A stretch of DNA of 64,000 nt from Thermodesulfobacteriota bacterium (lineage in GTDB: Bacteria > Desulfobacterota_D > UBA1144 > Nemesobacterales > Mycalebacteriaceae). Location: NCBI GenBank assembly GCA_965205855.1, contig OZ242184.1, forward strand, positions 886,570 to 950,569, written 5' to 3'. A model generated the notes under the pieces. The model ran no database searches, was not told the DNA's origin, and saw only the letters and a list, made by a program, of their open reading frames with translations. The position numbers and the translations under genes are program-made. This document shows positions 9,101-52,664 of this stretch, piece after piece (positions within the stretch are counted from its first letter, which is position 1; the number at the start of each line of letters is the position of its first letter).

Positions 9101-11047
9101 ATGAAAAGTAGCATATTCAAGAATATATTCATCTGGTTGCTGATTTTTGTCGGTCTCGTAGCGTTCTATCAGTTCAGGGGAATGCCGCAAGACAAGCCGC
9201 TGGAAATATCCTACAGCGATTTTCTCGCCCATGTTGAAAACGGGAAAATCAGCAGTGTGGAAATAACCCTTGAAGATAGCTTAATTCAGGGCTCATTTAC
9301 AAAAGGATTTATCCCGCTGCAAGAGGCATTGCCTGAAAACGCCGCGTCTGTACAAGGCGCTGAAGCGAACAAAACCGACCGGTCTGTTACTTTCAAAACA
9401 TTCGGTCCCGTGGAAGAGAACTACCTGCTTCAAACTCTCAGAGAAAACGGAGTAAAGTTCAGTTACGCGAAAAATTCGGGTAGAAGCTTCGGGCAGATTT
9501 TAATAAGCTGGGGACCGTTTCTGCTCCTTATAATACTTATGGTTTTCTTTCTGCGCCAGATTCAGGCAGGCGGCTCAAAAGCGATGTCCTTCGGCAAGAA
9601 CAAGGCTAAAAAACTGGACACTGAAAACAACAAAATAACATTTGACGATGTGGCGGGAATCGAAGAAGCAAAAGAGGAAGTCGGAGAGATAGTAGACTTT
9701 CTGCAAAACCCGGCAAGGTTCACTTCAATAGGAGGCAAAATTCCGAAAGGGGTGTTGCTTGTTGGGCCCCCCGGAACGGGAAAAACCCTTCTCGCCCGCG
9801 CGATTGCGGGAGAAGCCAACGTTCCATTTTTTCTGATAAGCGGAAGTGATTTTGTTGAAATGTTTGTTGGCGTCGGCGCTTCAAGGGTCAGAGACCTTTT
9901 CGCTCAGGCGAAAAAGAGTGCTCCATGCATAATATTTGTGGATGAACTTGACGCGGTCGGCAGGCACAGAGGAGCTGGTCTTGGAGGAGGCCATGATGAA
10001 AGGGAGCAAACCCTCAACCAGCTTCTTGTGGAAATGGACGGCTTTGAAAACAACAGGGGAACAATAGTTATGGCGGCAACAAACCGTCCCGATGTTCTTG
10101 ACCCTGCGCTTCTGCGTCCGGGGAGGTTTGATAGACAGATAGTTGTTTCCAGACCCGACTTCAAAGGACGCAAAGCCATACTTCAGGTTCACTCAAGAAA
10201 AACCCCTCTGCAAACAAATGTGGACCTTGAGGTAATAGCACTGTCAACTCCGGGGTTTTCCGGCGCGGATCTTGAAAACCTTGTGAATGAGTCGGTTCTT
10301 CACGCTGCGCGCAATGGAAACAAGATGGTCTCAATGGAAGACTTTGAATACGCCAAGGACAAAATAATGATGGGTTCGGAAAGAAAAAGTCTTGTCATAA
10401 ATGAGAAAGAGCGGAATATCACTGCTTACCACGAAGCCGGACACGCCGTGGTCGCAAAACTCACTCCGGGCGCGGACCCAGTGCACAAGGTAACAATTAT
10501 TCCGCGTGGAATGGCTCTCGGCCTCACGCAGCAGATACCCAAAGAAGACACATACACACAGTCGCGCTCTTATCTGAACACTTTGATAATGGTGCTGCTC
10601 GGCGGGCGCGCAGCGGAAGAAATCATCTTCGGAGAACGCACAAGCGGAGCCGGAAACGATTTGAAAAGAGTTACCGAAATAGCCAGAAAGATGGTCTGCG
10701 AGTGGGGAATGAGCGAAAAAATAGGCCCCATATCACTCGCGAAAACCGAAGAGCAAGTTTTCCTCGGAAAAGAGTTTGCGAAAGCATTCGACCACAGTCA
10801 GCGGACCGCCGAAAAAATAGACATGGAAATCAAAGCGATTGTGGAAATGAACTATGGGAAAAGCAAAAGGGTTTTGAACAACAACATAGAACTGCTCAAA
10901 TCGGTTGCCAAGAGGCTTTTAAAAAAAGAAAGCATCACCGGCAGGGAAATAGACGAAATAATGGAAGCCTCAAACCTTTTCGTCAAACATTTTAAAGACA
11001 GAAAATCCTCAGAAATGGAATCGGGGCCGCAACAAGCCCGCGCATGA
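9101..11047 (+). CDS. ftsH: ATP-dependent zinc metalloprotease FtsH.
   Basis: It has an N-terminal TM region, an AAA+ module ([14 protein letters not shown], second region of homology) and HEAGH zinc site. I prefer the ATG at 9101 over the TTG track start at 9059. Confidence 0.85.
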
Positions 11048-42788: not shown

Positions 42789-43547
42789 TCAATTATGCCA
42801 CAAAAAGGGATGGAGTGTCAAACTATACGGCGACCGCCTGATAGTCGGGGAGTTCACCCATTGTTTTCCCTCAAGAGCGCGTCCCGTCTTCTTTTTGTTC
42901 ACACCGCCCCATTGTTTGAAGAAAAACGGAACCCCGCTTTCAACGCAGTTGTCCCTGATTTCCGTAACCCATTCCTCTTTCATCGGTCTTGCGCCGGGGC
43001 CGGACTCTCCACCGACAATGACCCAGTCTATGCCTGACAAATTGAGGTTTGGAAACGGGGCAAGCAACGGTTCAAGAGAAAGAAACTTCACGCAAGCATC
43101 GGTCTGTTTTAAAACTTCTGTACGGGAAAGATATTTCTCGGACTCTACGCTTGTTCCCATCCAGATGTTGGAAGTCCAGTGCAGGTGTTTGTTCGCCTTC
43201 ACAACCCTTTCCGGTCTTTTTGTGAGAACCTGAAAAGTGTGTTGAGATGCTTCGTTCATAACTTCAAAAACGGACATAATGAATTTTGCGGGAACATCCT
43301 TGTGGAACAAATCGCTCATTGAATTGACAAAAACTATTTTCGGTTTTTTCCATTTAAGCGGGTCTTTCAAAGTGTGTTCATGAGTGGTGAGTTTGAAACC
43401 GTTTCTGTATTTCTCCATCCCTTGAGCGTGAAGCCGCTTTGCCATCCGCTCGGCGTAGCAGTATTTGCAACCGTGGCTGATTTTTGAACAACCGGTAATG
43501 GGGTTCCATGTTGTGTGAGTCCATCCTATTTTGGAGGGTTGGGTCAT
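42789..43547 (-). CDS. Phage Gp37/Gp68 (DUF5131)-like three-Cys protein.
   Basis: Its N-terminus is [26 protein letters not shown] (C-x6-C-x2-C). The start ATG overlaps the res stop (TAATG). Confidence 0.55.
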
Positions 43548-46091: not shown

Positions 46092-46649
46092 TCACGGATT
46101 TTTTGAGTCAGTACTGTCTGAATTATTTGGCAAATTGATGATTTCAACAGGCACATTCCTTTTACCAACTGCAAGACCGACAGCGTAGTTACGGATAATA
46201 GTTTGATCCATTTCCATATCCGCATAGCCTTGTGGATAGTACGAACCCCTTAGAATTTCCATCTGTTCTACCTTAAAATCTAGCACCTTGGCCATTGAGC
46301 TAAGCATCTCCGTGAGCAATTCCATTTGCTCCTTGCCGAGTCGTTCATAGTGCGAACGAGAATCATTTTCTTCGTTAGGCCTCTTAGCATGCGTTTCACC
46401 ATAATGCTTGCGGAGTGCTGCCCATTTTTCTATAACTTCTTTATGCTTAACAAATTCTATCTCAACCAGATTAATGGCTCCGACATAATCAGGTGATAAA
46501 CGCGCATTTCGTGTACGCATTAACGTCTTGAATATATCCATTTTTCGCGCCTTTTGTTCGCGCCATCTGTCAAGAAGACCGTTAACCCAGACAGCTGCGC
46601 AAGGACCGATTAAGATGGCTGCAATGGTGATGATAGAATATGAATTCAT
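46092..46649 (-). CDS. Membrane-anchored hypothetical protein embedded between mod and res.
   Basis: It has one N-terminal TM helix (IITIAAILIGPCAAVWVNGLL) followed by a charged helical domain. It lies 2 nt after the mod stop and 1 nt before the res start, and is visibly AT-richer than its flanks. Confidence 0.6.
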   Translation of the reverse strand: MNSYSIITIAAILIGPCAAVWVNGLLDRWREQKARKMDIFKTLMRTRNARLSPDYVGAINLVEIEFVKHKEVIEKWAALRKHYGETHAKRPNEENDSRSHYERLGKEQMELLTEMLSSMAKVLDFKVEQMEILRGSYYPQGYADMEMDQTIIRNYAVGLAVGKRNVPVEIINLPNNSDSTDSKNP

Positions 46650-46651
46650 GT

Positions 46652-48208
46652 TTATCTTATACCCTCATATGGTAATTGGGCAAAAGTTATCCCCATCTCG
46701 GTTAATGCTTTTTGTCCCATGAATTTGTGAGTGGCGAACACCACCGCGGTTTTCTTTTTTGCCTTGGCCTGTTTGGCGATGCGTTCGGCGCGGGTGCTGT
46801 TCAAAGCGGAATCCGCACTGCGCAGAAAATCAAGGTTCGGCTCGTAGATCAGGTAAAACATTTTGTCACCTGCTTCATAAAATAAACCGTCTTTGCCACG
46901 CCTTGTTTTCGGGTTGAGTTTATGCGGCGATTGTCCGCTTGCGGTATAGATCAGATGGCGGGCAAAGGTTTCATAGCCCGGCAGGTTCCTGCCGGTGAGC
47001 ATTTTTTCAATGCTGATTTCATCGCCCAGTGTGCAATAGGCAAAACTGCCGCCCAGTCCGTTTTTTAGGTTCTCATCCTTTGCTTTTGGTATGCCCTTTA
47101 TCACACGGCGAACGCGCTCGGCGGTGATTTTGTCGGCGTAGTCTTCGCATTCCACCAAGATAAATTTGCGGTTGCCGCCGTCTTCCTTGTTCAGCGCAAG
47201 CACGGCGTGGGCAGTGGTGCCGGAACCGGCGAAGGAGTCGAGGATAATGGCGTTTTTTGTCGTTGCCAGTTGTAAAATCTTTTTCACAAGGGAAATTGGT
47301 TTGGGGTTTTGGAACTGATTAGAACCAAACACCGTCCTCAACTCGATTGTGCCGTTGGTTGTTGTACCTACATCATCCCACCAAGTGCTAGGCGTTAACC
47401 CCCTTCGGCGTGCCTCTGACAAAAAACGTTTGCGCTGAGGTCTGGAACTATTTCTCTTTCCGAATACGATTCTATTGTCTGCAAGAAGCTCCTCAAATTT
47501 GTTCAAATCGTTTTTCCAGCAATTACCTTCAGTGGGGTAAAATATTTCTTTTGTTTTAGGGTTTCTTATCGGATACATCTGATTAGGTCGAACCCCACCA
47601 GCCTCAAATGGATCCGCCTTCCATGGGCCTCTCGGATCATTATCAGGATTTTTGAATCCTTCTAAAATGGCAGGAAGTTTGAAATCTTTTCTAATGGTTT
47701 TTAATACATTCAGTTGTTTAGCATAAGCTATATTATGAGTGTGTGATATTGATACTAATGCAGGATTTGTAATTGATTTTGTGCTATGCCACACAAAATC
47801 TGCAACAAAATTCTCCTCCCCAAAAATCTCATCCATGACCATCCGCAGGCGGTGCTGTTCATTGTCGTCGATGGAAATAAAAATTACGCCATCTTCGGCC
47901 AGCAATTCTCTTAACAACTGCAATCTTGGCCACATCATGCACAGCCATTTGTCGTGCCGCTCCAGGTCTTCGCCATCCACCGGACTTTTGCCTTTCAGCC
48001 ACGCCTTCATCATCGGGCTGTTGACATTGTCGTTATAGACCCATTTCTCATTGCCGGTGTTGTAGGGCGGGTCGATGTAAATGCAGTTGACGCGGCTGGC
48101 ATAGCGCGGCAGCAACGCCTTGAGCGCGTGCAGATTGTCGCCGTGGATAATCAGATTGTCATCAAGGGAAGGGTTACCCCCCCATTTTTCGCTGAAAGAG
48201 ATTTTTTA
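46652..48208 (-). pseudogene. mod: Type III R-M Mod subunit (beta-class N6-adenine methyltransferase) with its 5' end disrupted at a G7 tract; candidate phase-variable gene in the OFF state.
   Basis: DPPY (motif IV) precedes ILDSFAGSGTTAHAV (motif I). Mod-like sequence (DDNLIIHGDNLHALKA) continues upstream of the annotated TTG (48115) to a TAA at about 48208, with no ATG. An upstream ATG ORF (48291..48151) is in another frame and crosses the G7 tract at about 48177-48183. Confidence 0.7.
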
Positions 48209-48284
48209 GTGTCTATCTCAAGTGTCCTGGACGGAACAGTCAGGTGGTGCGCATAAATGAGTTGCTTCCCTTTGAAATCAATTG

Positions 48285-48448
48285 TCGGCATTGAAAACCC
48301 CGTAAATCAGTTTGATATTGGCTTTGAAGATACCCGATTTACTCCCCCAACCTAAACCCCTCAACCTCCCGATGCACCGCCCCTTCCCGTCTCAATTCAC
48401 TCTCCATCAAACAAACTCTTTCAGAAGCAAAACCAAGTTCAAACTGCG
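48285..48448. repeat. Direct repeat copy A of the thpR 3'-terminal sequence (about 164 nt).
   Basis: It is near-identical to copy B and about 90% identical to copy C over tcagtttgatattggctttgaa...caaactgcg. It abuts the mod upstream ATG on one side and the IS fragment on the other. Confidence 0.8.
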
Positions 48449-48768
48449 CCCGCGGTGACATGGAGAACCGGATCAAGGATCAGCAGTTGGATTTGTTTGC
48501 GGATCGCACCTCTTGTCACCGCTGGTGGCCCAACCAGTGCCGGCAGTTGCTGTCAGGGTTGGCTTACACGTTGATTGAGGGATTGCGGCGCCTTGCACTA
48601 CAGGGCACCGAACTGGCCAAAGCCAGTCCTCACAGGATCAGGCTGACACTGCTTAAAATCGGTGCCGTGATCATCCGCAACACGCGCCGCATCCGCCTAC
48701 TGATGAGCAGTGCTTATCCCCATCAGGCGTTGTTCCGCACGGCAGCCTATCGGCTCAACTCCCCATAA
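48449..48768 (+). mobile_element. C-terminal fragment (about 100 aa) of an IS1380-like DDE transposase; IS remnant.
   Basis: ENRIKDQQLDLFADRTSCHRWWPNQ ... LAYTL ... RLTLLKIGA matches the conserved C-terminus of IS1380-family transposases. There is no N-terminal catalytic part, and it starts exactly where repeat A ends. Confidence 0.55.
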
Positions 48769-48959
48769 ACCCAACCCAGTGCTGCCCCGGCATGTTGATA
48801 AACAATGGGGGTAGGGGGAGTTGCGCCCGAAATCTGTGAACAACGAAAGAATTGATCAAAGAACAGGCAACTGCATCATATGATGCATCGACAGGGATGG
48901 CGCTACCGAAAAATCGACCACCACCGCTTCACTCATGAAATATCCGGGATAGTCTCGCT

Positions 48960-50099
48960 TTATTTTCGGATGAGAAACAGAAATTCTTTATTCGGATCGC
49001 TGGATTCCCGCAACCACTCATTTGTCCATTTCATGGCGGCCATCACATTTTTTTTATACTCAATTTTTGCGCTATCCACAATTTCTCCGTTACGCGTTAT
49101 CACCTCGTTTAATTCCTCCGCGGTTGCTCGTCCACCGGAACTGTAAGAGAGCAAGATCCATCGGCAAGGAGTTTCCTTCAGCAAACGCTCTATGGCTTCC
49201 ACCACAACCAATCGTCCTGATTTGCTTCTACGAAATTCCTCGAACACTGAAGTCGCCACTTTATCGGATGTGTCTTTTCTGCGGAGGGACTTGCCAAATA
49301 GCACGGGATGATCATTTTTACATATGGTCGTCCACAAATGATAATATGAAGCGTACCGAACCCTTGAAGGTGGCATTTTTTCATTGTTTGACCCATACGG
49401 AGGATCAAAATAAGCAAGATCGGCGTCCGCTTCGGGAAGTACCTTAAAAACATCACCACACAGCACCGTGTTTTCGATTTCATTTTTCCACAACCGTGGC
49501 ACTTTCAATTGTAAATTTTTGAATGAACGCGGCGACCAATCTTTTAAATAAGAAACAAAATGACCAAGAGTACTGTCTATCTCATTCAACCCTAAAATCA
49601 GGCTTGTCAATGCCACACTTTTGGAAACGTCATCCAGCATCAAGGCATCGATCTCTCTCCTGATTGCATCAAGTTTTCTTGTATTTTTTTTCTGCCAAGG
49701 CTTTTTGGTTCCATCCTTCTGAATAGCATTATGGCAAGTTCCAGAGCGAACATCACCACCGTAATTCTCAGTAAACCATCCGTCTTCCGGAGGAAGCGAA
49801 TTTAAATGATCAATAAGAGGTTGGTATATTTTCGGGTTTTTTAAGTTTTTCAAATAGCACGTGGCAAAAATTCTTGACCATTCGGAAATATCATTTGATA
49901 CCACGCGATATCCTGCTTGTGCAAAAGATTGACTTACTCTGGTGGAGCCTGAAAAACCGTCAAAAATGCTTTTTGCTCCGGTCTGTTTTGACAGATTAAA
50001 AATATGTGGAAGCAGTTTCAGTTTTGAGCCTGCGTAATTGATGCCTTCGGTTTTTGGAACATCAATCCAATCACGAAAAATTTGAACTTGCCCTTGCAT
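48960..50099 (-). CDS. D12-class (Dam-family) N6-adenine DNA methyltransferase.
   Basis: It has the N-terminal INYAGSKLKLLP motif (compare Dam WAGGK..LL) and FDPPYGS (motif IV), at 379 aa. Confidence 0.7.
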   Translation of the reverse strand: MQGQVQIFRDWIDVPKTEGINYAGSKLKLLPHIFNLSKQTGAKSIFDGFSGSTRVSQSFAQAGYRVVSNDISEWSRIFATCYLKNLKNPKIYQPLIDHLNSLPPEDGWFTENYGGDVRSGTCHNAIQKDGTKKPWQKKNTRKLDAIRREIDALMLDDVSKSVALTSLILGLNEIDSTLGHFVSYLKDWSPRSFKNLQLKVPRLWKNEIENTVLCGDVFKVLPEADADLAYFDPPYGSNNEKMPPSRVRYASYYHLWTTICKNDHPVLFGKSLRRKDTSDKVATSVFEEFRRSKSGRLVVVEAIERLLKETPCRWILLSYSSGGRATAEELNEVITRNGEIVDSAKIEYKKNVMAAMKWTNEWLRESSDPNKEFLFLIRK

Positions 50100-50776
50100 T
50101 ATGTAACTTTAAAGCGGGAAGCCTGCTTGAGTCTAACAATATCATCTTTCACTTTTGCAAGAGCCTCATTCTGGCCGAAATCAGAAGAAACAAGCGCGTG
50201 AGAAAATAGTTGGACCAAGATAGGATTGTGAGAATAATCAACCCATCCATTGGTTATGCTATCAAAATAGTTTAAACCACTTTTTGTATGAGTCCAAAGC
50301 CCTCGCTGGAGGGCATTGGCGGTTGCGCTTCCATAACGCACCTCGCAAATATAAGAATCGCTTGCATCGTAGAAACGATATACTGGGTGCTTTCTACCTT
50401 TCTTTTTTGTTTCTTTTACTATTTTCACCGTTTCAGTTTCAGCGCGGTGGTAATCGAAGACAAGAATATTACACTGTCGATTTTTTTCGTCATAAATTAA
50501 TGGCAAAACATTTACATTGTAAAAATCCGAGAAAGCGGGGTCGGCAAGCACTCGTTGTACATTTTTCTTGCCCACTATTTCATCCCCCTCTTGTGCCAAT
50601 CTCGGAAACATTTTGAAATTCTTGTCGGTTGAAAGTTGAAGGGGACCATCACCATACGCTTTGATGCTAACAGGAAATTCAGCTTCGGTTACTTCATTTA
50701 TTATTTTGATGTCTTCTTCCCGAGATTTGGCTCTGTATAAATCTTTGCCAACATGGATCGAGCGAAAATCATACAT
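50099..50776 (-). CDS. Candidate Type II restriction endonuclease (C-terminal part?), paired with the Dam-like methyltransferase.
   Basis: Its stop overlaps the methyltransferase start. The 225-aa product has no recognised motif, and a 69-aa ORF abuts it 1 nt upstream in another frame. Confidence 0.35.
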   Translation of the reverse strand: MYDFRSIHVGKDLYRAKSREEDIKIINEVTEAEFPVSIKAYGDGPLQLSTDKNFKMFPRLAQEGDEIVGKKNVQRVLADPAFSDFYNVNVLPLIYDEKNRQCNILVFDYHRAETETVKIVKETKKKGRKHPVYRFYDASDSYICEVRYGSATANALQRGLWTHTKSGLNYFDSITNGWVDYSHNPILVQLFSHALVSSDFGQNEALAKVKDDIVRLKQASRFKVT

Positions 50777-50777
50777 A

Positions 50778-50987
50778 CTACTGGTTGATAAATTCGGCTA
50801 TGGCGATTTCTGCCAAATCTCCATGTGTTTTATTTCCAATGAGGCGCATGGTGAAAATGTTGCTCAATGTCAAGATTATTAAATCCGGGCGTTTACTCGC
50901 AAGAAGCTTCAATCTCGAGATGAAATCTTTATATGGATCATTTTTCATGTTTTTCGTTTGATGCCTCTGTTTTGGTATTTTTATCAA
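50778..50987 (-). CDS. Small ORF, possibly the frameshifted N-terminal part of the downstream restriction gene.
   Basis: The 69-aa product ends 1 nt before the ATG of the 225-aa ORF. Confidence 0.3.
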   Translation of the reverse strand: MIKIPKQRHQTKNMKNDPYKDFISRLKLLASKRPDLIILTLSNIFTMRLIGNKTHGDLAEIAIAEFINQ

Positions 50988-51105
50988 CCTTCATTTTTCA
51001 GATCGTCGCATGAGCTTGGGTTGAGATGATTCGGTAGCGTCATCGAGAATTCATGTGTATCAATTGCTGTTCAAGTTTAACCCGTTTTGCCTGTAAATCA
51101 CCCAA

Positions 51106-51335
51106 TCGGCATTGAAAACCCCGTAAATCAGTTTGATATTGGCTTTGAAGATACCCGATTTACTCCCCCAACCTAAACCCCTCAACCTCCCGATGCACCG
51201 CCCCTTCCCGTCTCAATTCACTCTCCATCAAACAAACTCTTTCAGAAGCAAAACCAAGTTCAAACTGCGGCAATTCGGGTAGCTTCATCCTTTTTTTTAT
51301 CCACCCTATCGTAACGTGCGACATAAAATCCCGTT
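51106..51335. repeat. Direct repeat copy B of the thpR 3'-terminal sequence (about 230 nt).
   Basis: It is identical to copy A over about 164 nt and continues to match copy C through ...ataaaatcccgtt. Confidence 0.8.
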
Positions 51336-51872: not shown

Positions 51873-52050
51873 ATTTGCAACCTCTTATTTTTACCTAATT
51901 ATCACTTAAACTAAGCAGAGTTTCAAGATATTTTCCGGCATCGGCGGCGTTTTGAGCGCTGCATAAGCAAGTCTCGGTATTAACTCGCACAAATCAAAGC
52001 GACGATTGAAACGATACTGAAATTCTGACAAATAACGCTGTGCGTATTTT

Positions 52051-52258
52051 TCAGTTTGATATTGGCTTTGAAAATACCCGATTTACTCCCCCAACCTAAA
52101 ACCCTCAACCTCCCGATGCACCGCCCCTTCTCGTCTCAATTCACTCTCCATCAAACAAACCCTGTCAGAAACAAACTCAAGTTTAAACTGCGGCAATTCG
52201 GGCAGTTTTATCCTTTTTCTTATCCGCCCTATCGTAATGTGTGGTATAAAATCCCGTT
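52051..52258. repeat. Repeat copy C: the resident 3' end of thpR plus about 30 nt downstream, the source sequence of copies A and B.
   Basis: It overlaps thpR codons for ...HITIGRIRKRIKLPELPQFKLEFVSDRVCLMESELRREGAVHREVEGFRLGE*. Confidence 0.8.
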
Positions 52259-52664
52259 TCTCCGGCTCAAAACCGATTGTCTCAAGTTTTGAGTCAATCT
52301 CGTCCTTGAGACTGAAAAACGCGTCCCCGGATTCCGCAATCACCGCAAGCGTCTGCGTATAACGGCGGAGTATAAGCGCCTCAACCCCGTCCGTTGTGAT
52401 GTCGAGCGGCACAAACCGCTTGCAACAACTTTCAATAACCCCGCACAGTTCGGGAATCAATTCGCGGCGCGTCTCTCCGAGAAACCTTAAAGTAATATGG
52501 AATTTTTCAGACAGCTCCCAACGCACATGGCGGAGCGAGCGTATTGCGGCGGAACGGGATTTTATCACCCTTTTTGCTTTTTCGGGAACTTCAAGAGAAA
52601 TAAAAAGCCGGACGGTAGCGCTGTCAACTCTCAAGCTCAACATTCCAGTATGAGGCATCAACAA
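52083..52664 (-). CDS. thpR: RNA 2',3'-cyclic phosphodiesterase (2H family, ThpR/LigT).
   Basis: It has two HxT/S motifs (HITLRFLGE and HITIGRI), at 193 aa. Confidence 0.8.
   Translation of the reverse strand: MLMPHTGMLSLRVDSATVRLFISLEVPEKAKRVIKSRSAAIRSLRHVRWELSEKFHITLRFLGETRRELIPELCGVIESCCKRFVPLDITTDGVEALILRRYTQTLAVIAESGDAFFSLKDEIDSKLETIGFEPEKRDFIPHITIGRIRKRIKLPELPQFKLEFVSDRVCLMESELRREGAVHREVEGFRLGE

What the first reader, a model, noticed from the sequence alone, without database searches (positions are those of the whole stretch)
48960..50987. Dam-like methyltransferase with a probably frameshift-split restriction gene (orphan-ising Type II module)
A 379-aa D12-class N6-adenine methyltransferase (xYAGSK ... 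DPPY) is preceded by a 225-aa ORF whose stop overlaps the methyltransferase start. The 225-aa ORF in turn is preceded, 1 nt away and in a different frame, by a 69-aa ORF. Together they total about 294 aa, the size of the DpnII/MboI-type enzymes that usually partner Dam-like GATC methyltransferases. The 225-aa frame has a TAG only 9 codons upstream of its ATG, so a single-nucleotide indel near 50777-50805 would explain the split. The restriction gene then looks inactivated while the methyltransferase is intact.
Basis: inference. Interest (0 to 1): 0.5.

Follow-up and report, generated by a model that had tools for sequence, protein, structure and literature searches.

The report
Restriction gene broken by one base

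Summary
On the minus strand a 379-aa D12-class adenine methyltransferase gene (48960-50099) follows a 225-aa ORF (50099-50776), which follows a short ORF ending at 50778. The two ORFs are one 282-aa gene. About 3,900 homologues are single proteins of about 282 aa that read ...AEFINQ-Y-MYDF... across the junction. A 98.7%-identical copy in another genome differs by one indel, an extra G at 50778 (CAGTA[G]TATG). That base creates TAG, and native Met58 follows 1 nt later.

The Dam/DpnII/GATC reading is not supported. The methylase scores 17 bits against a Dam cut-off of 114.85. The nuclease has no DpnII match, and MutH and Sau3AI rank low. Specificity is unknown.

The 2,165-bp module (40.7% GC; window 48.8%) is foreign. 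It carries a hitch-hiked valS tail and joins at a 9-bp microhomology. Among 80 species genomes R is broken in 6 and M in none.

This is a new member of a known kind. I could not check reads.

The parts
48960..50099 (-). M gene: intact 379-aa D12-class (alpha-type order: NYAGSK ... FDGFSGS ... DPPY) N6-adenine DNA methyltransferase
   Evidence: ORF. Pfam PF02086 E=1.6e-22. PADLOC MTase_II PDLC03342 E=6.9e-162 over residues 12-379. 6,457 homologues, mostly 373-387 aa, at 100% coverage. Only 2 amino-acid differences from the L003 copy that partners an intact R gene.
50099..50776 (-). R gene, 3' fragment: codons 58-282 of the restriction endonuclease. Holds the beta-sheet core with invariant D79, S94-x-K96, Q104 and T107. 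Starts at the native Met58 codon.
50778..50948 (-). R gene, 5' fragment: codons 1-56 plus the new TAG stop (50780-50778). Encodes the three N-terminal helices, including the invariant GNKTHGDLAE motif (E47). The TTG at 50987 listed by the ORF finder is an upstream over-extension.
   Evidence: All homologues start at the position of the ATG at 50948. Secondary structure is from the AF2 model.
50778..50778 (-). The lesion: one extra G (C on the + strand) inside Tyr57, turning CAG TAT ATG into CAG TAG T ATG. It is not in a homopolymer.
   Evidence: It is the only gap in a 2,165-nt alignment at 98.7% identity with L003, L004 and L005. The 82 R genes caught by a motif scan at this junction have 6 bases between the Asn55 and Met58 codons; the window has 7.
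50099..50103 (-). TAATG: the R stop and M start overlap by one base (translational coupling signal).
   Evidence: The overlap is -1 or -4 nt in 65 of 82 family loci, and the gap is 1-5 nt in 15 more.
48950..51114 (-). Horizontally acquired 2,165-bp patch carrying the R-M module. Its GC is 40.7%, against 48.8% for the window.
   Evidence: 98.7% identical to L003-L005 (host flanks about 60% GC) and 98.3-98.8% identical to L006 over the parts L006 keeps (host about 47% GC).
51040..51114 (-). Hitch-hiked 3' tail of a valS gene (24 codons plus stop: QCRLGDLQAKRVKLEQQLIHMNSR*), carried in with the module.
   Evidence: In L003 the same sequence is the end of the called 970-aa valyl-tRNA synthetase gene.
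51106..51114 (-). Insertion junction at the microhomology CAATGCCGA. This sequence is shared by the thpR-mod intergenic region and mod start (CAATGCCGA) and by the valS tail (CAATCCCGA).
   Evidence: Three-way comparison of repeat copies A and B with L003.
51128..51335 (-). Direct repeat copy B: a duplicated 3' end of the thpR/ligT gene plus the downstream intergenic region, flanking the module upstream.
   Evidence: the repeat finder family D1. Alignment A2.
48307..48514 (-). Direct repeat copy A: a partial duplicate of the thpR 3' end, flanking the module downstream and leading into the Type III mod gene.
48460..48768 (+). C-terminal remnant (102 aa) of an IS1380-type DDE transposase, between the module and repeat copy A.
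   Evidence: Pfam PF13701 DDE_Tnp_1_4, E=8.3e-34, profile positions 332-431 of 435.

Best explanation
This is a classical two-gene Type II restriction-modification operon with gene order R then M and an overlapping stop/start. It arrived recently by horizontal transfer as a naked 2.2-kb patch.

R is a PD-(D/E)XK nuclease. Its conserved residues sit in the canonical order: E47 on a helix, D79 at the start of the second core strand, and S94-x-K96 on the third. M is an alpha-type D12-class N6-adenine methyltransferase.

One inserted G in codon 57 of R creates a TAG and shifts the frame. The gene can now give at most two pieces, residues 1-56 (carrying E47) and residues 58-282 (carrying D79 and K96). 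Restriction is therefore most likely lost, while M is unchanged.

What is shown: the split, the exact lesion, the identity of R as a restriction-enzyme family member, the intact M, the foreign origin of the patch, and the R-specific decay across the family.

What is inferred: loss of cleavage activity, continued methylation, and a role for the lesion in letting the module settle in this host. The operon has no controller protein and R is translated first, which could favour R-null alleles when the module enters an unmethylated genome.

The recognition sequence is unknown. It should contain an adenine.
For: Split and lesion. 3,884 homologues are single ORFs of about 282 aa and are continuous across the junction. 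One extra G at 50778 is the only indel against a 98.7%-identical intact copy.

Operon. M follows R directly in 84 of 86 loci. Stop and start overlap in 65 of 82 loci. Genomic contexts are unrelated.

M is intact..

Foreign patch. GC is 40.7% against 48.8% for the window. Near-identical copies sit in genomes of about 59% and about 47% GC. The patch carries a valS tail and joins at a microhomology.

Asymmetric decay. R has nonsense or frameshift lesions in 6 of 80 species-representative genomes, and M in 0 of 78 (Fisher p=0.028). L006 carries the same patch with a 639-nt deletion of the R 5' part.

Assembly quality. No split housekeeping genes were seen elsewhere in the window, and the lesion is not in a homopolymer.
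Against: I had no read data, so a consensus error cannot be excluded. The neighbouring Type III mod gene also carries a frameshift, in a G7 run of the kind that assemblers get wrong.

R shows almost no further decay: 8 synonymous and 5 non-synonymous differences from the intact copy, one of them (H259Q) at a conserved His. The lesion is therefore very recent, or it is an artefact.

Neither activity was measured.

In an independent sample of 69 metagenomic R genes only 1 was disrupted, so R decay is not frequent everywhere.

In L006 the M gene carries an in-frame MITE insertion. R loss is therefore not always followed by retention of an untouched M.
Confidence: 0.8

Rival explanations
1. Assembly or consensus error: the real genome has an intact R gene and a fully active R-M system.
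For: I could not inspect reads. A second frameshift lies 2.6 kb away, in a G7 homopolymer of the Type III mod gene. R has no other disabling change.
Against: The extra base is a G between A and T, not in a homopolymer. Other ORFs in the window look intact. Independent R lesions exist in other genomes of the family. The gene callers behind the public protein collection also recorded the 225-aa product (P0002).
Confidence: 0.12
2. One reading: a Dam-like GATC methyltransferase paired with a DpnII/MboI-type enzyme.
For: The MTase is in the same Pfam superfamily (D12 class) as Dam, DpnM and M.MboIA. The only solved relative a profile search finds is DpnM.
Confidence: 0.04
3. Non-polar or still-functional split. 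The lesion places a stop 1 nt before the native Met58 codon (UAGUAUG), so ribosomes could terminate and restart. That would keep translation flowing along the R frame into the overlapping M start. It would also make R(1-56) plus R(58-282), which might reassemble into a weak enzyme or act as a dead DNA-binding protein.
For: Three independent R-null alleles put their first stop 0-3 nt before the Met58 codon: the window (TAG T ATG), L050 (TAA TAC ATG) and L066 (TAA ATG). A post-hoc calculation gives P about 0.003 for at least 3 of 9 lesions falling within 2 codons upstream of an internal Met. Stop/start overlap of R and M is conserved. The window and L003 allele has no obvious Shine-Dalgarno sequence before M. 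Residue 57 sits at a helix-to-strand boundary in the model.
Against: The statistic is post hoc. The other lesions (L030, L046, L056, L079, L193 and the L006 deletion) are elsewhere. None of 69 further metagenomic R genes had a stop at codons 56-57. L066 has lost M altogether. Y57 is conserved and is lost in the split. No expression data exist.
Confidence: 0.12
4. The 69-aa ORF is an independent small gene, such as a controller (C) protein.
For: It lies upstream of R in the same orientation, as C genes do.
Against: Its sequence is the N-terminus of every full-length homologue. It gives only weak below-threshold matches and no helix-turn-helix family hit. Its residues 14-69 are 100% identical to residues 1-56 of the intact 282-aa R protein in L003.
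Confidence: 0.01

Closest known systems
ThaI and NaeI (solved Type II restriction endonucleases of the EcoRV-like PD-(D/E)XK branch; PDB 3ndh, 1ev7)
   Different: Sequence identity is only 11-12%. There is no sequence-level relationship to any solved structure, and Foldseek finds nothing significant. The (D/E)xK position reads S94-x-K96. From memory, Cfr10I and NgoMIV also have S-x-K there and recruit the acid from elsewhere; I did not test this. ThaI (CGCG) and NaeI (GCCGGC) recognise sites without adenine, so as far as I recall their partner methylases modify cytosine. This system has an adenine methylase, so its target must differ.
EcoRV R-M system (D12-class M.EcoRV plus an EcoRV-fold nuclease)
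   Different: No detectable sequence similarity. The gene arrangement and protein sizes differ (R 282 aa and M 379 aa here). The specificity here is unknown.
DpnII / MboI with Dam-like M.DpnIIA / M.MboIA
   Same: The MTase belongs to the same Pfam D12 superfamily.
   Different: It fails the Dam family threshold. R is unrelated to the DpnII family in sequence. By fold it is far closer to ThaI and NaeI than to the GATC cutters MutH and Sau3AI.
Solitary ('orphan') methyltransferases derived from decayed R-M systems
   Same: As assembled, the MTase has no functional partner nuclease. R-specific decay recurs in the family.
   Different: The R remnant is nearly pristine, so this is at most the first step. 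PADLOC scores the MTase as MTase_II (E=6.9e-162), not as its orphan-MTase model (E=5e-9). Oliveira et al. 2014 (PMC4176335) concluded that solitary genes rarely arise from in-situ degradation of complete systems, so such cases are a minority route.

Membership tests
Type II (IIP-like) restriction-modification system | Separate R and M genes that are adjacent and co-oriented | tested here: met
   R is followed directly by M in 84 of 86 family loci. Stop and start overlap, or lie 1-5 nt apart, in 80 of 82 loci.
Type II (IIP-like) restriction-modification system | M is a SAM-dependent DNA methyltransferase with catalytic motifs | tested here: met
   PF02086 E=1.6e-22. PADLOC MTase_II E=6.9e-162. 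DPPY and F-x-G-x-G (FDGFSGS) are present and invariant in the family.
Type II (IIP-like) restriction-modification system | R belongs to a recognised restriction-endonuclease family or fold | tested here: met
Type II (IIP-like) restriction-modification system | Site-specific cleavage that is blocked by the cognate methylation | not testable with these tools
   This needs biochemistry or methylome data. K-mer avoidance in 1.38 Mb of host DNA gave no clear candidate site.
Dam / DpnII-MboI (GATC) systems | MTase reaches the Dam family model threshold | tested here: not met
   TIGR00571 scores 17 bits against a cut-off of 114.85. The family profile against the PDB finds DpnM only at E=0.007 over 67 residues.
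Dam / DpnII-MboI (GATC) systems | Nuclease belongs to the DpnII/MboI sequence family | tested here: not met
Dam / DpnII-MboI (GATC) systems | GATC specificity | not testable with these tools
   GATC O/E is 0.81 in host flanks, which is not distinctive.
PD-(D/E)XK nuclease superfamily | alpha-beta-beta-beta core with conserved E ... D ... (D/E)xK | tested here: inconclusive
   E47 (helix 41-57), D79 (start of strand 80-84) and K96 (strand 90-99) are invariant and in the canonical order. The middle acid position is Ser94, not D/E. The fold match is strong. I could not inspect active-site geometry because no coordinates were available.
Solitary (orphan) DNA methyltransferase | No functional cognate nuclease | tested here: met
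   R is split by the insertion at 50778. This holds as assembled; reads were not checked.
Solitary (orphan) DNA methyltransferase | MTase maintained long term without R (conserved orphan lineage) | tested here: not met
   The R remnant differs from an intact copy by one indel, 8 synonymous and 5 non-synonymous changes. Nearly all relatives keep R.

The most novel reading that the evidence does not exclude
R-null mutations in this family may not be random. They may be favoured at the two codons just before the internal Met58, because a stop there lets ribosomes restart at once. That would keep the translationally coupled methylase expressed: a 'safe' way to disarm a restriction enzyme without losing protection. 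It may also leave a truncated, catalytically dead R(58-282).
Probability: 0.12. Interest if true: 0.5.

Novelty: new member of a known kind. Interest (0 to 1): 0.25.

Why it matters
By itself this is routine: a restriction gene knocked out by one base next to its intact methylase. Three things give it modest value.

First, the nuclease family is very widespread. It occurs in 493 species-level genomes across many phyla at 72-84% identity, and there are about 3,900 proteins. Yet it has no Pfam or NCBIfam model, no solved structure and no name in any record seen. The confident model and the conserved E47/D79/S94-x-K96 residues now describe it.

Second, the same 2.2-kb patch is seen at 98-99% identity in three genomes of different GC content. 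One copy is intact, one is frameshifted and one is deleted. Donor-gene scraps and a microhomology junction are still visible. That is a clean snapshot of how naked R-M modules spread without a mobile element and how they decay on arrival.

Third, it bears on the debate over whether solitary methyltransferases come from in-situ decay of complete systems (PMC4176335).

Tried and rejected
Sequence search of the repaired R against the PDB gave no hit.

The afdb50 fold library was unavailable.

The first AF2 run, with a shallow alignment of 73-85% identity, gave a poor model (pLDDT 66.8). I replaced it with a run on a diverse alignment.

Palindrome avoidance in 1.38 Mb around 82 family loci was meant to guess the recognition site. 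Only the usual CTAG depletion and a broad, non-specific depletion of many 6-mers appeared. Inconclusive.

Exact-protein look-ups meant to find the window's own contig or sister strains all returned nothing (P0002, P0271, the HNH protein and DUF5131). The frameshift could therefore not be checked in an independent assembly.

R was searched against plasmid and phage collections with no match. Only 4 distant relatives turned up among 2.9 million viral contigs. The module is not visibly carried by known mobile elements.

A full-text search for conserved peptides of the family found nothing relevant.

Rfam and tRNA scans of the window found no RNA element at the locus.

The promoter and terminator scan was at background level.

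A metagenome scan that was agnostic at codons 56-57 yielded 69 R genes with only one pseudogene. It neither supports nor kills the idea that lesions cluster before Met58.

A suspected IS1595-like remnant at 51906-52031 got no Pfam support.

I considered programmed +1 frameshifting at CAG-UAG-U and rejected it on sequence grounds, because P-site re-pairing is not possible. This is inference only.

Full report
**1. The observation**

The three minus-strand ORFs are exactly as described. They are a 379-aa ORF at 48960-50099, a 225-aa ORF at 50099-50776 and a 69-aa ORF (TTG start) at 50778-50987. The DNA reads ...GAA TTT ATC AAC CAG TAG T ATG TAT GAT TTT... at the junction. At the R/M boundary it reads ...ACA TAATG CAA..., so the stop and start share one base. 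Pfam calls the 379-aa product a D12-class N6-adenine methyltransferase (PF02086, E=1.6e-22). Neither upstream ORF has a significant Pfam or NCBIfam hit.

**2. The two upstream ORFs are one gene**

I joined them conceptually into a 282-aa product, starting from the ATG at 50948. This product matches 3,884 database proteins. The best 120 are nearly all 279-284 aa, 73-80% identical and cover 93-100% of the query. In the alignment every full-length homologue reads ...AEFINQ-Y-MYDFRS... across the junction, and every one starts where the window has MKNDPYKDF. The 69-aa ORF is therefore the N-terminus of the protein and not a separate gene. The TTG start is an over-extension, and the true length is 282 aa rather than about 294.

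**3. The exact lesion**

The methylase search turned up a 99%-identical methylase on another contig (P0272). Its loci (L003, L004, L005) carry an intact 282-aa R gene directly upstream. Window 48950-51114 aligns to L003 over 2,165 nt at 98.7% identity with a single gap. The gap is one extra G at window 50778: CAGTA[G]TATG against CAGTATATG. It converts Tyr57 (TAT) into TAG and shifts the frame. The native Met58 ATG follows 1 nt later.

The insertion is not in a homopolymer. The 82 R genes caught by a motif scan at this junction have six bases between the Asn55 and Met58 codons; the window has seven. After repair, R differs from the intact copy by 8 synonymous and 5 non-synonymous changes, one of which (H259Q) hits a conserved His. 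M differs by 6 synonymous and 2 non-synonymous changes. The lesion is therefore recent.

Other ORFs in the window look intact. I could not inspect reads, and the window's own contig is not in the look-up index. A consensus error remains possible, at about 10-15% in my estimate.

**4. What the gene is**

PADLOC, whose R-M models I understand to derive from REBASE (my recollection, not checked here), matches the full-length protein to a Type II REase model (PDLC03568, E=2.3e-140, residues 5-281 of 281). It matches the methylase to a Type II MTase model (PDLC03342, E=6.9e-162). Pfam, NCBIfam and PDB sequence searches find no related family or structure for R.

An exhaustive search of 1.84 billion cluster representatives found 277 related clusters. 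An alignment reaching down to 27% identity leaves G43, E47, G67, D79, S94, K96, Q104 and T107 invariant. With that alignment AlphaFold2 gives a confident model (pLDDT 94.5, pTM 0.90). A shallower alignment had failed.

**5. It is an R-M operon**

In 84 of 86 retrieved loci the same approximately 380-aa D12 methylase follows R directly on the same strand. One exception ends at a contig edge. The other (L066) is a fully decayed R gene. The R stop overlaps the M start (TAATG/TGATG or ATGA) in 65 of 82 loci, and lies 1-5 nt away in 15 more. Genomic neighbourhoods are unrelated. The family occurs in 493 species-representative genomes, and the 80 best loci are almost all MAGs from many phyla. It is absent from the plasmid and phage collections and almost absent from viral contigs.

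**6. Not Dam/DpnII**

**7. Origin and surroundings**

The 2,165-bp patch is 40.7% GC in a window of 48.8% GC. The same patch sits in a genome with flanks of about 60% GC (L003) and in one of about 47% GC (L006). Its upstream 75 nt are the last 24 codons plus stop of a valS gene, and in L003 they form the real end of valS.

In the window the patch is joined to the thpR-mod intergenic region at a 9-nt microhomology (CAATGCCGA against CAATCCCGA). It is bracketed by duplicated copies of the thpR 3' end and by an IS1380-type transposase remnant. No integrase or transposase travels with the module.

In L006 the same patch has lost 639 nt: the sequence just upstream of R together with codons 1-189. 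Its M gene there carries an in-frame 139-nt MITE.

**8. Family-wide pattern**

Among the 80 species-representative loci, R is disrupted in six:
- L030, nonsense mutation.
- L046, frameshift near codon 20.
- L050, Q56 to stop.
- L056, nonsense mutation.
- L066, Y57 to stop, plus two more stops.
- L079, frameshift near codon 247.

M has no stop or frameshift in any of them (Fisher p=0.028). An independent metagenome sample gave 1 pseudogene among 69 R genes. R-specific decay is therefore real but not common, in line with the view that in-situ degradation is a minority route to solitary methylases (PMC4176335).

**9. Mechanism and rivals**

The best reading is a recently imported Type II R-M operon whose nuclease was disarmed by a +1 insertion while the methylase was kept (confidence about 0.8).

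One feature stands out. Three independent nulls (the window, L050 and L066) place their first stop 0-3 nt before Met58. Post hoc, this is unlikely by chance (P about 0.003). It suggests that stop-and-restart lesions may be favoured because they keep translation running into the coupled M start. The other lesions lie elsewhere, and I give this idea about 0.12.

An assembly error gets about 0.12, GATC/DpnII identity about 0.04, and an independent small gene about 0.01.

**10. Verdict**

This is a new member of a known kind (a Type II R-M system with an R pseudogene) and is of low to moderate interest.

Noticed in passing
window 48116-48291 (minus strand); G-run at about 48175-48181: The adjacent Type III mod gene is also frameshifted. 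Its first 46 codons (MPTIDFKGKQ...) are in one frame and the rest (from ...NPSLDDNLIIHGDNL, ORF 46652-48115) in another. The switch is at a run of 7 G. With 8 G the repaired N-terminus aligns in one piece (residues 1-169, up to 67.6% identity) to intact mod genes. This could be phase variation, decay or a homopolymer assembly error. Since Type III restriction needs Mod (established knowledge), both R-M systems of this island may be off.
   Followed up: partly
window 48307-48514, 51128-51335, 52051-52258: There are three direct copies (77-100% identical, about 208 nt) of the 3' end of the thpR/ligT gene (true gene 52083-52664, minus strand). They bracket successive inserts: a 136-aa membrane-like ORF, the Type II module with an IS remnant, and then the Type III system. 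It looks like a repeatedly used insertion hotspot. How the duplications arose is unexplained.
   Followed up: partly
window 51106-51114 and 51040-51114; L003 8987-9061: The module brought the last 24 codons of a valS gene with it. It is joined to the host at a 9-nt microhomology that overlaps the Type III mod start codon region. This is the signature of illegitimate recombination rather than a dedicated mobile element.
   Followed up: yes
L006 9587-11486 (ENA ERZ25069296, contig ctg24225_1813x_c): The same patch (98-99% identical) sits in a genome of about 47% GC. There it has a 639-nt deletion that removes the sequence just upstream of R together with codons 1-189. It also has a 139-nt MITE (14-bp terminal inverted repeats GAGACCTTTGCACG, 5-bp target duplication AAAAG) inserted in frame in the methylase, which becomes 427 aa. 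This copy also carries extra L003-like flanking sequence on both sides.
   Followed up: partly
L050 about 10166-10174; L066 about 10163-10171; window 50774-50780: Three independent R-null alleles have their first stop 0-3 nt upstream of the internal Met58 codon: TAA TAC ATG, TAA ATG and TAG T ATG. Post hoc P is about 0.003. It may reflect selection for knockouts that allow restart and do not block methylase translation.
   Followed up: partly
L066 10001-10840 (Spirochaetaceae MAG OZ245363.1): An R pseudogene with three in-frame stops and no detectable methylase gene within 10 kb. This looks like the end state in which the whole system is lost.
   Followed up: no
window 46092-46649 (minus strand): A DUF6680 gene (E=5.9e-47) sits between the Type III mod and res genes. 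Its function is unknown and the placement is unusual.
   Followed up: no
window 42789-43547 (minus strand): A DUF5131 (phage Gp37/Gp68-like) gene immediately follows the Type III res gene with an overlapping stop/start. It may be part of the same defence island.
   Followed up: no
L003 and L004 (same contig ctg24227_4548x_l, positions 257675-278814 and 2354658-2375797): The intact R-M module and about 20 kb of flanks occur twice on one 2.47-Mb linear contig with nearly identical gene content. This could be a large duplication or an assembly of two strain haplotypes.
   Followed up: no
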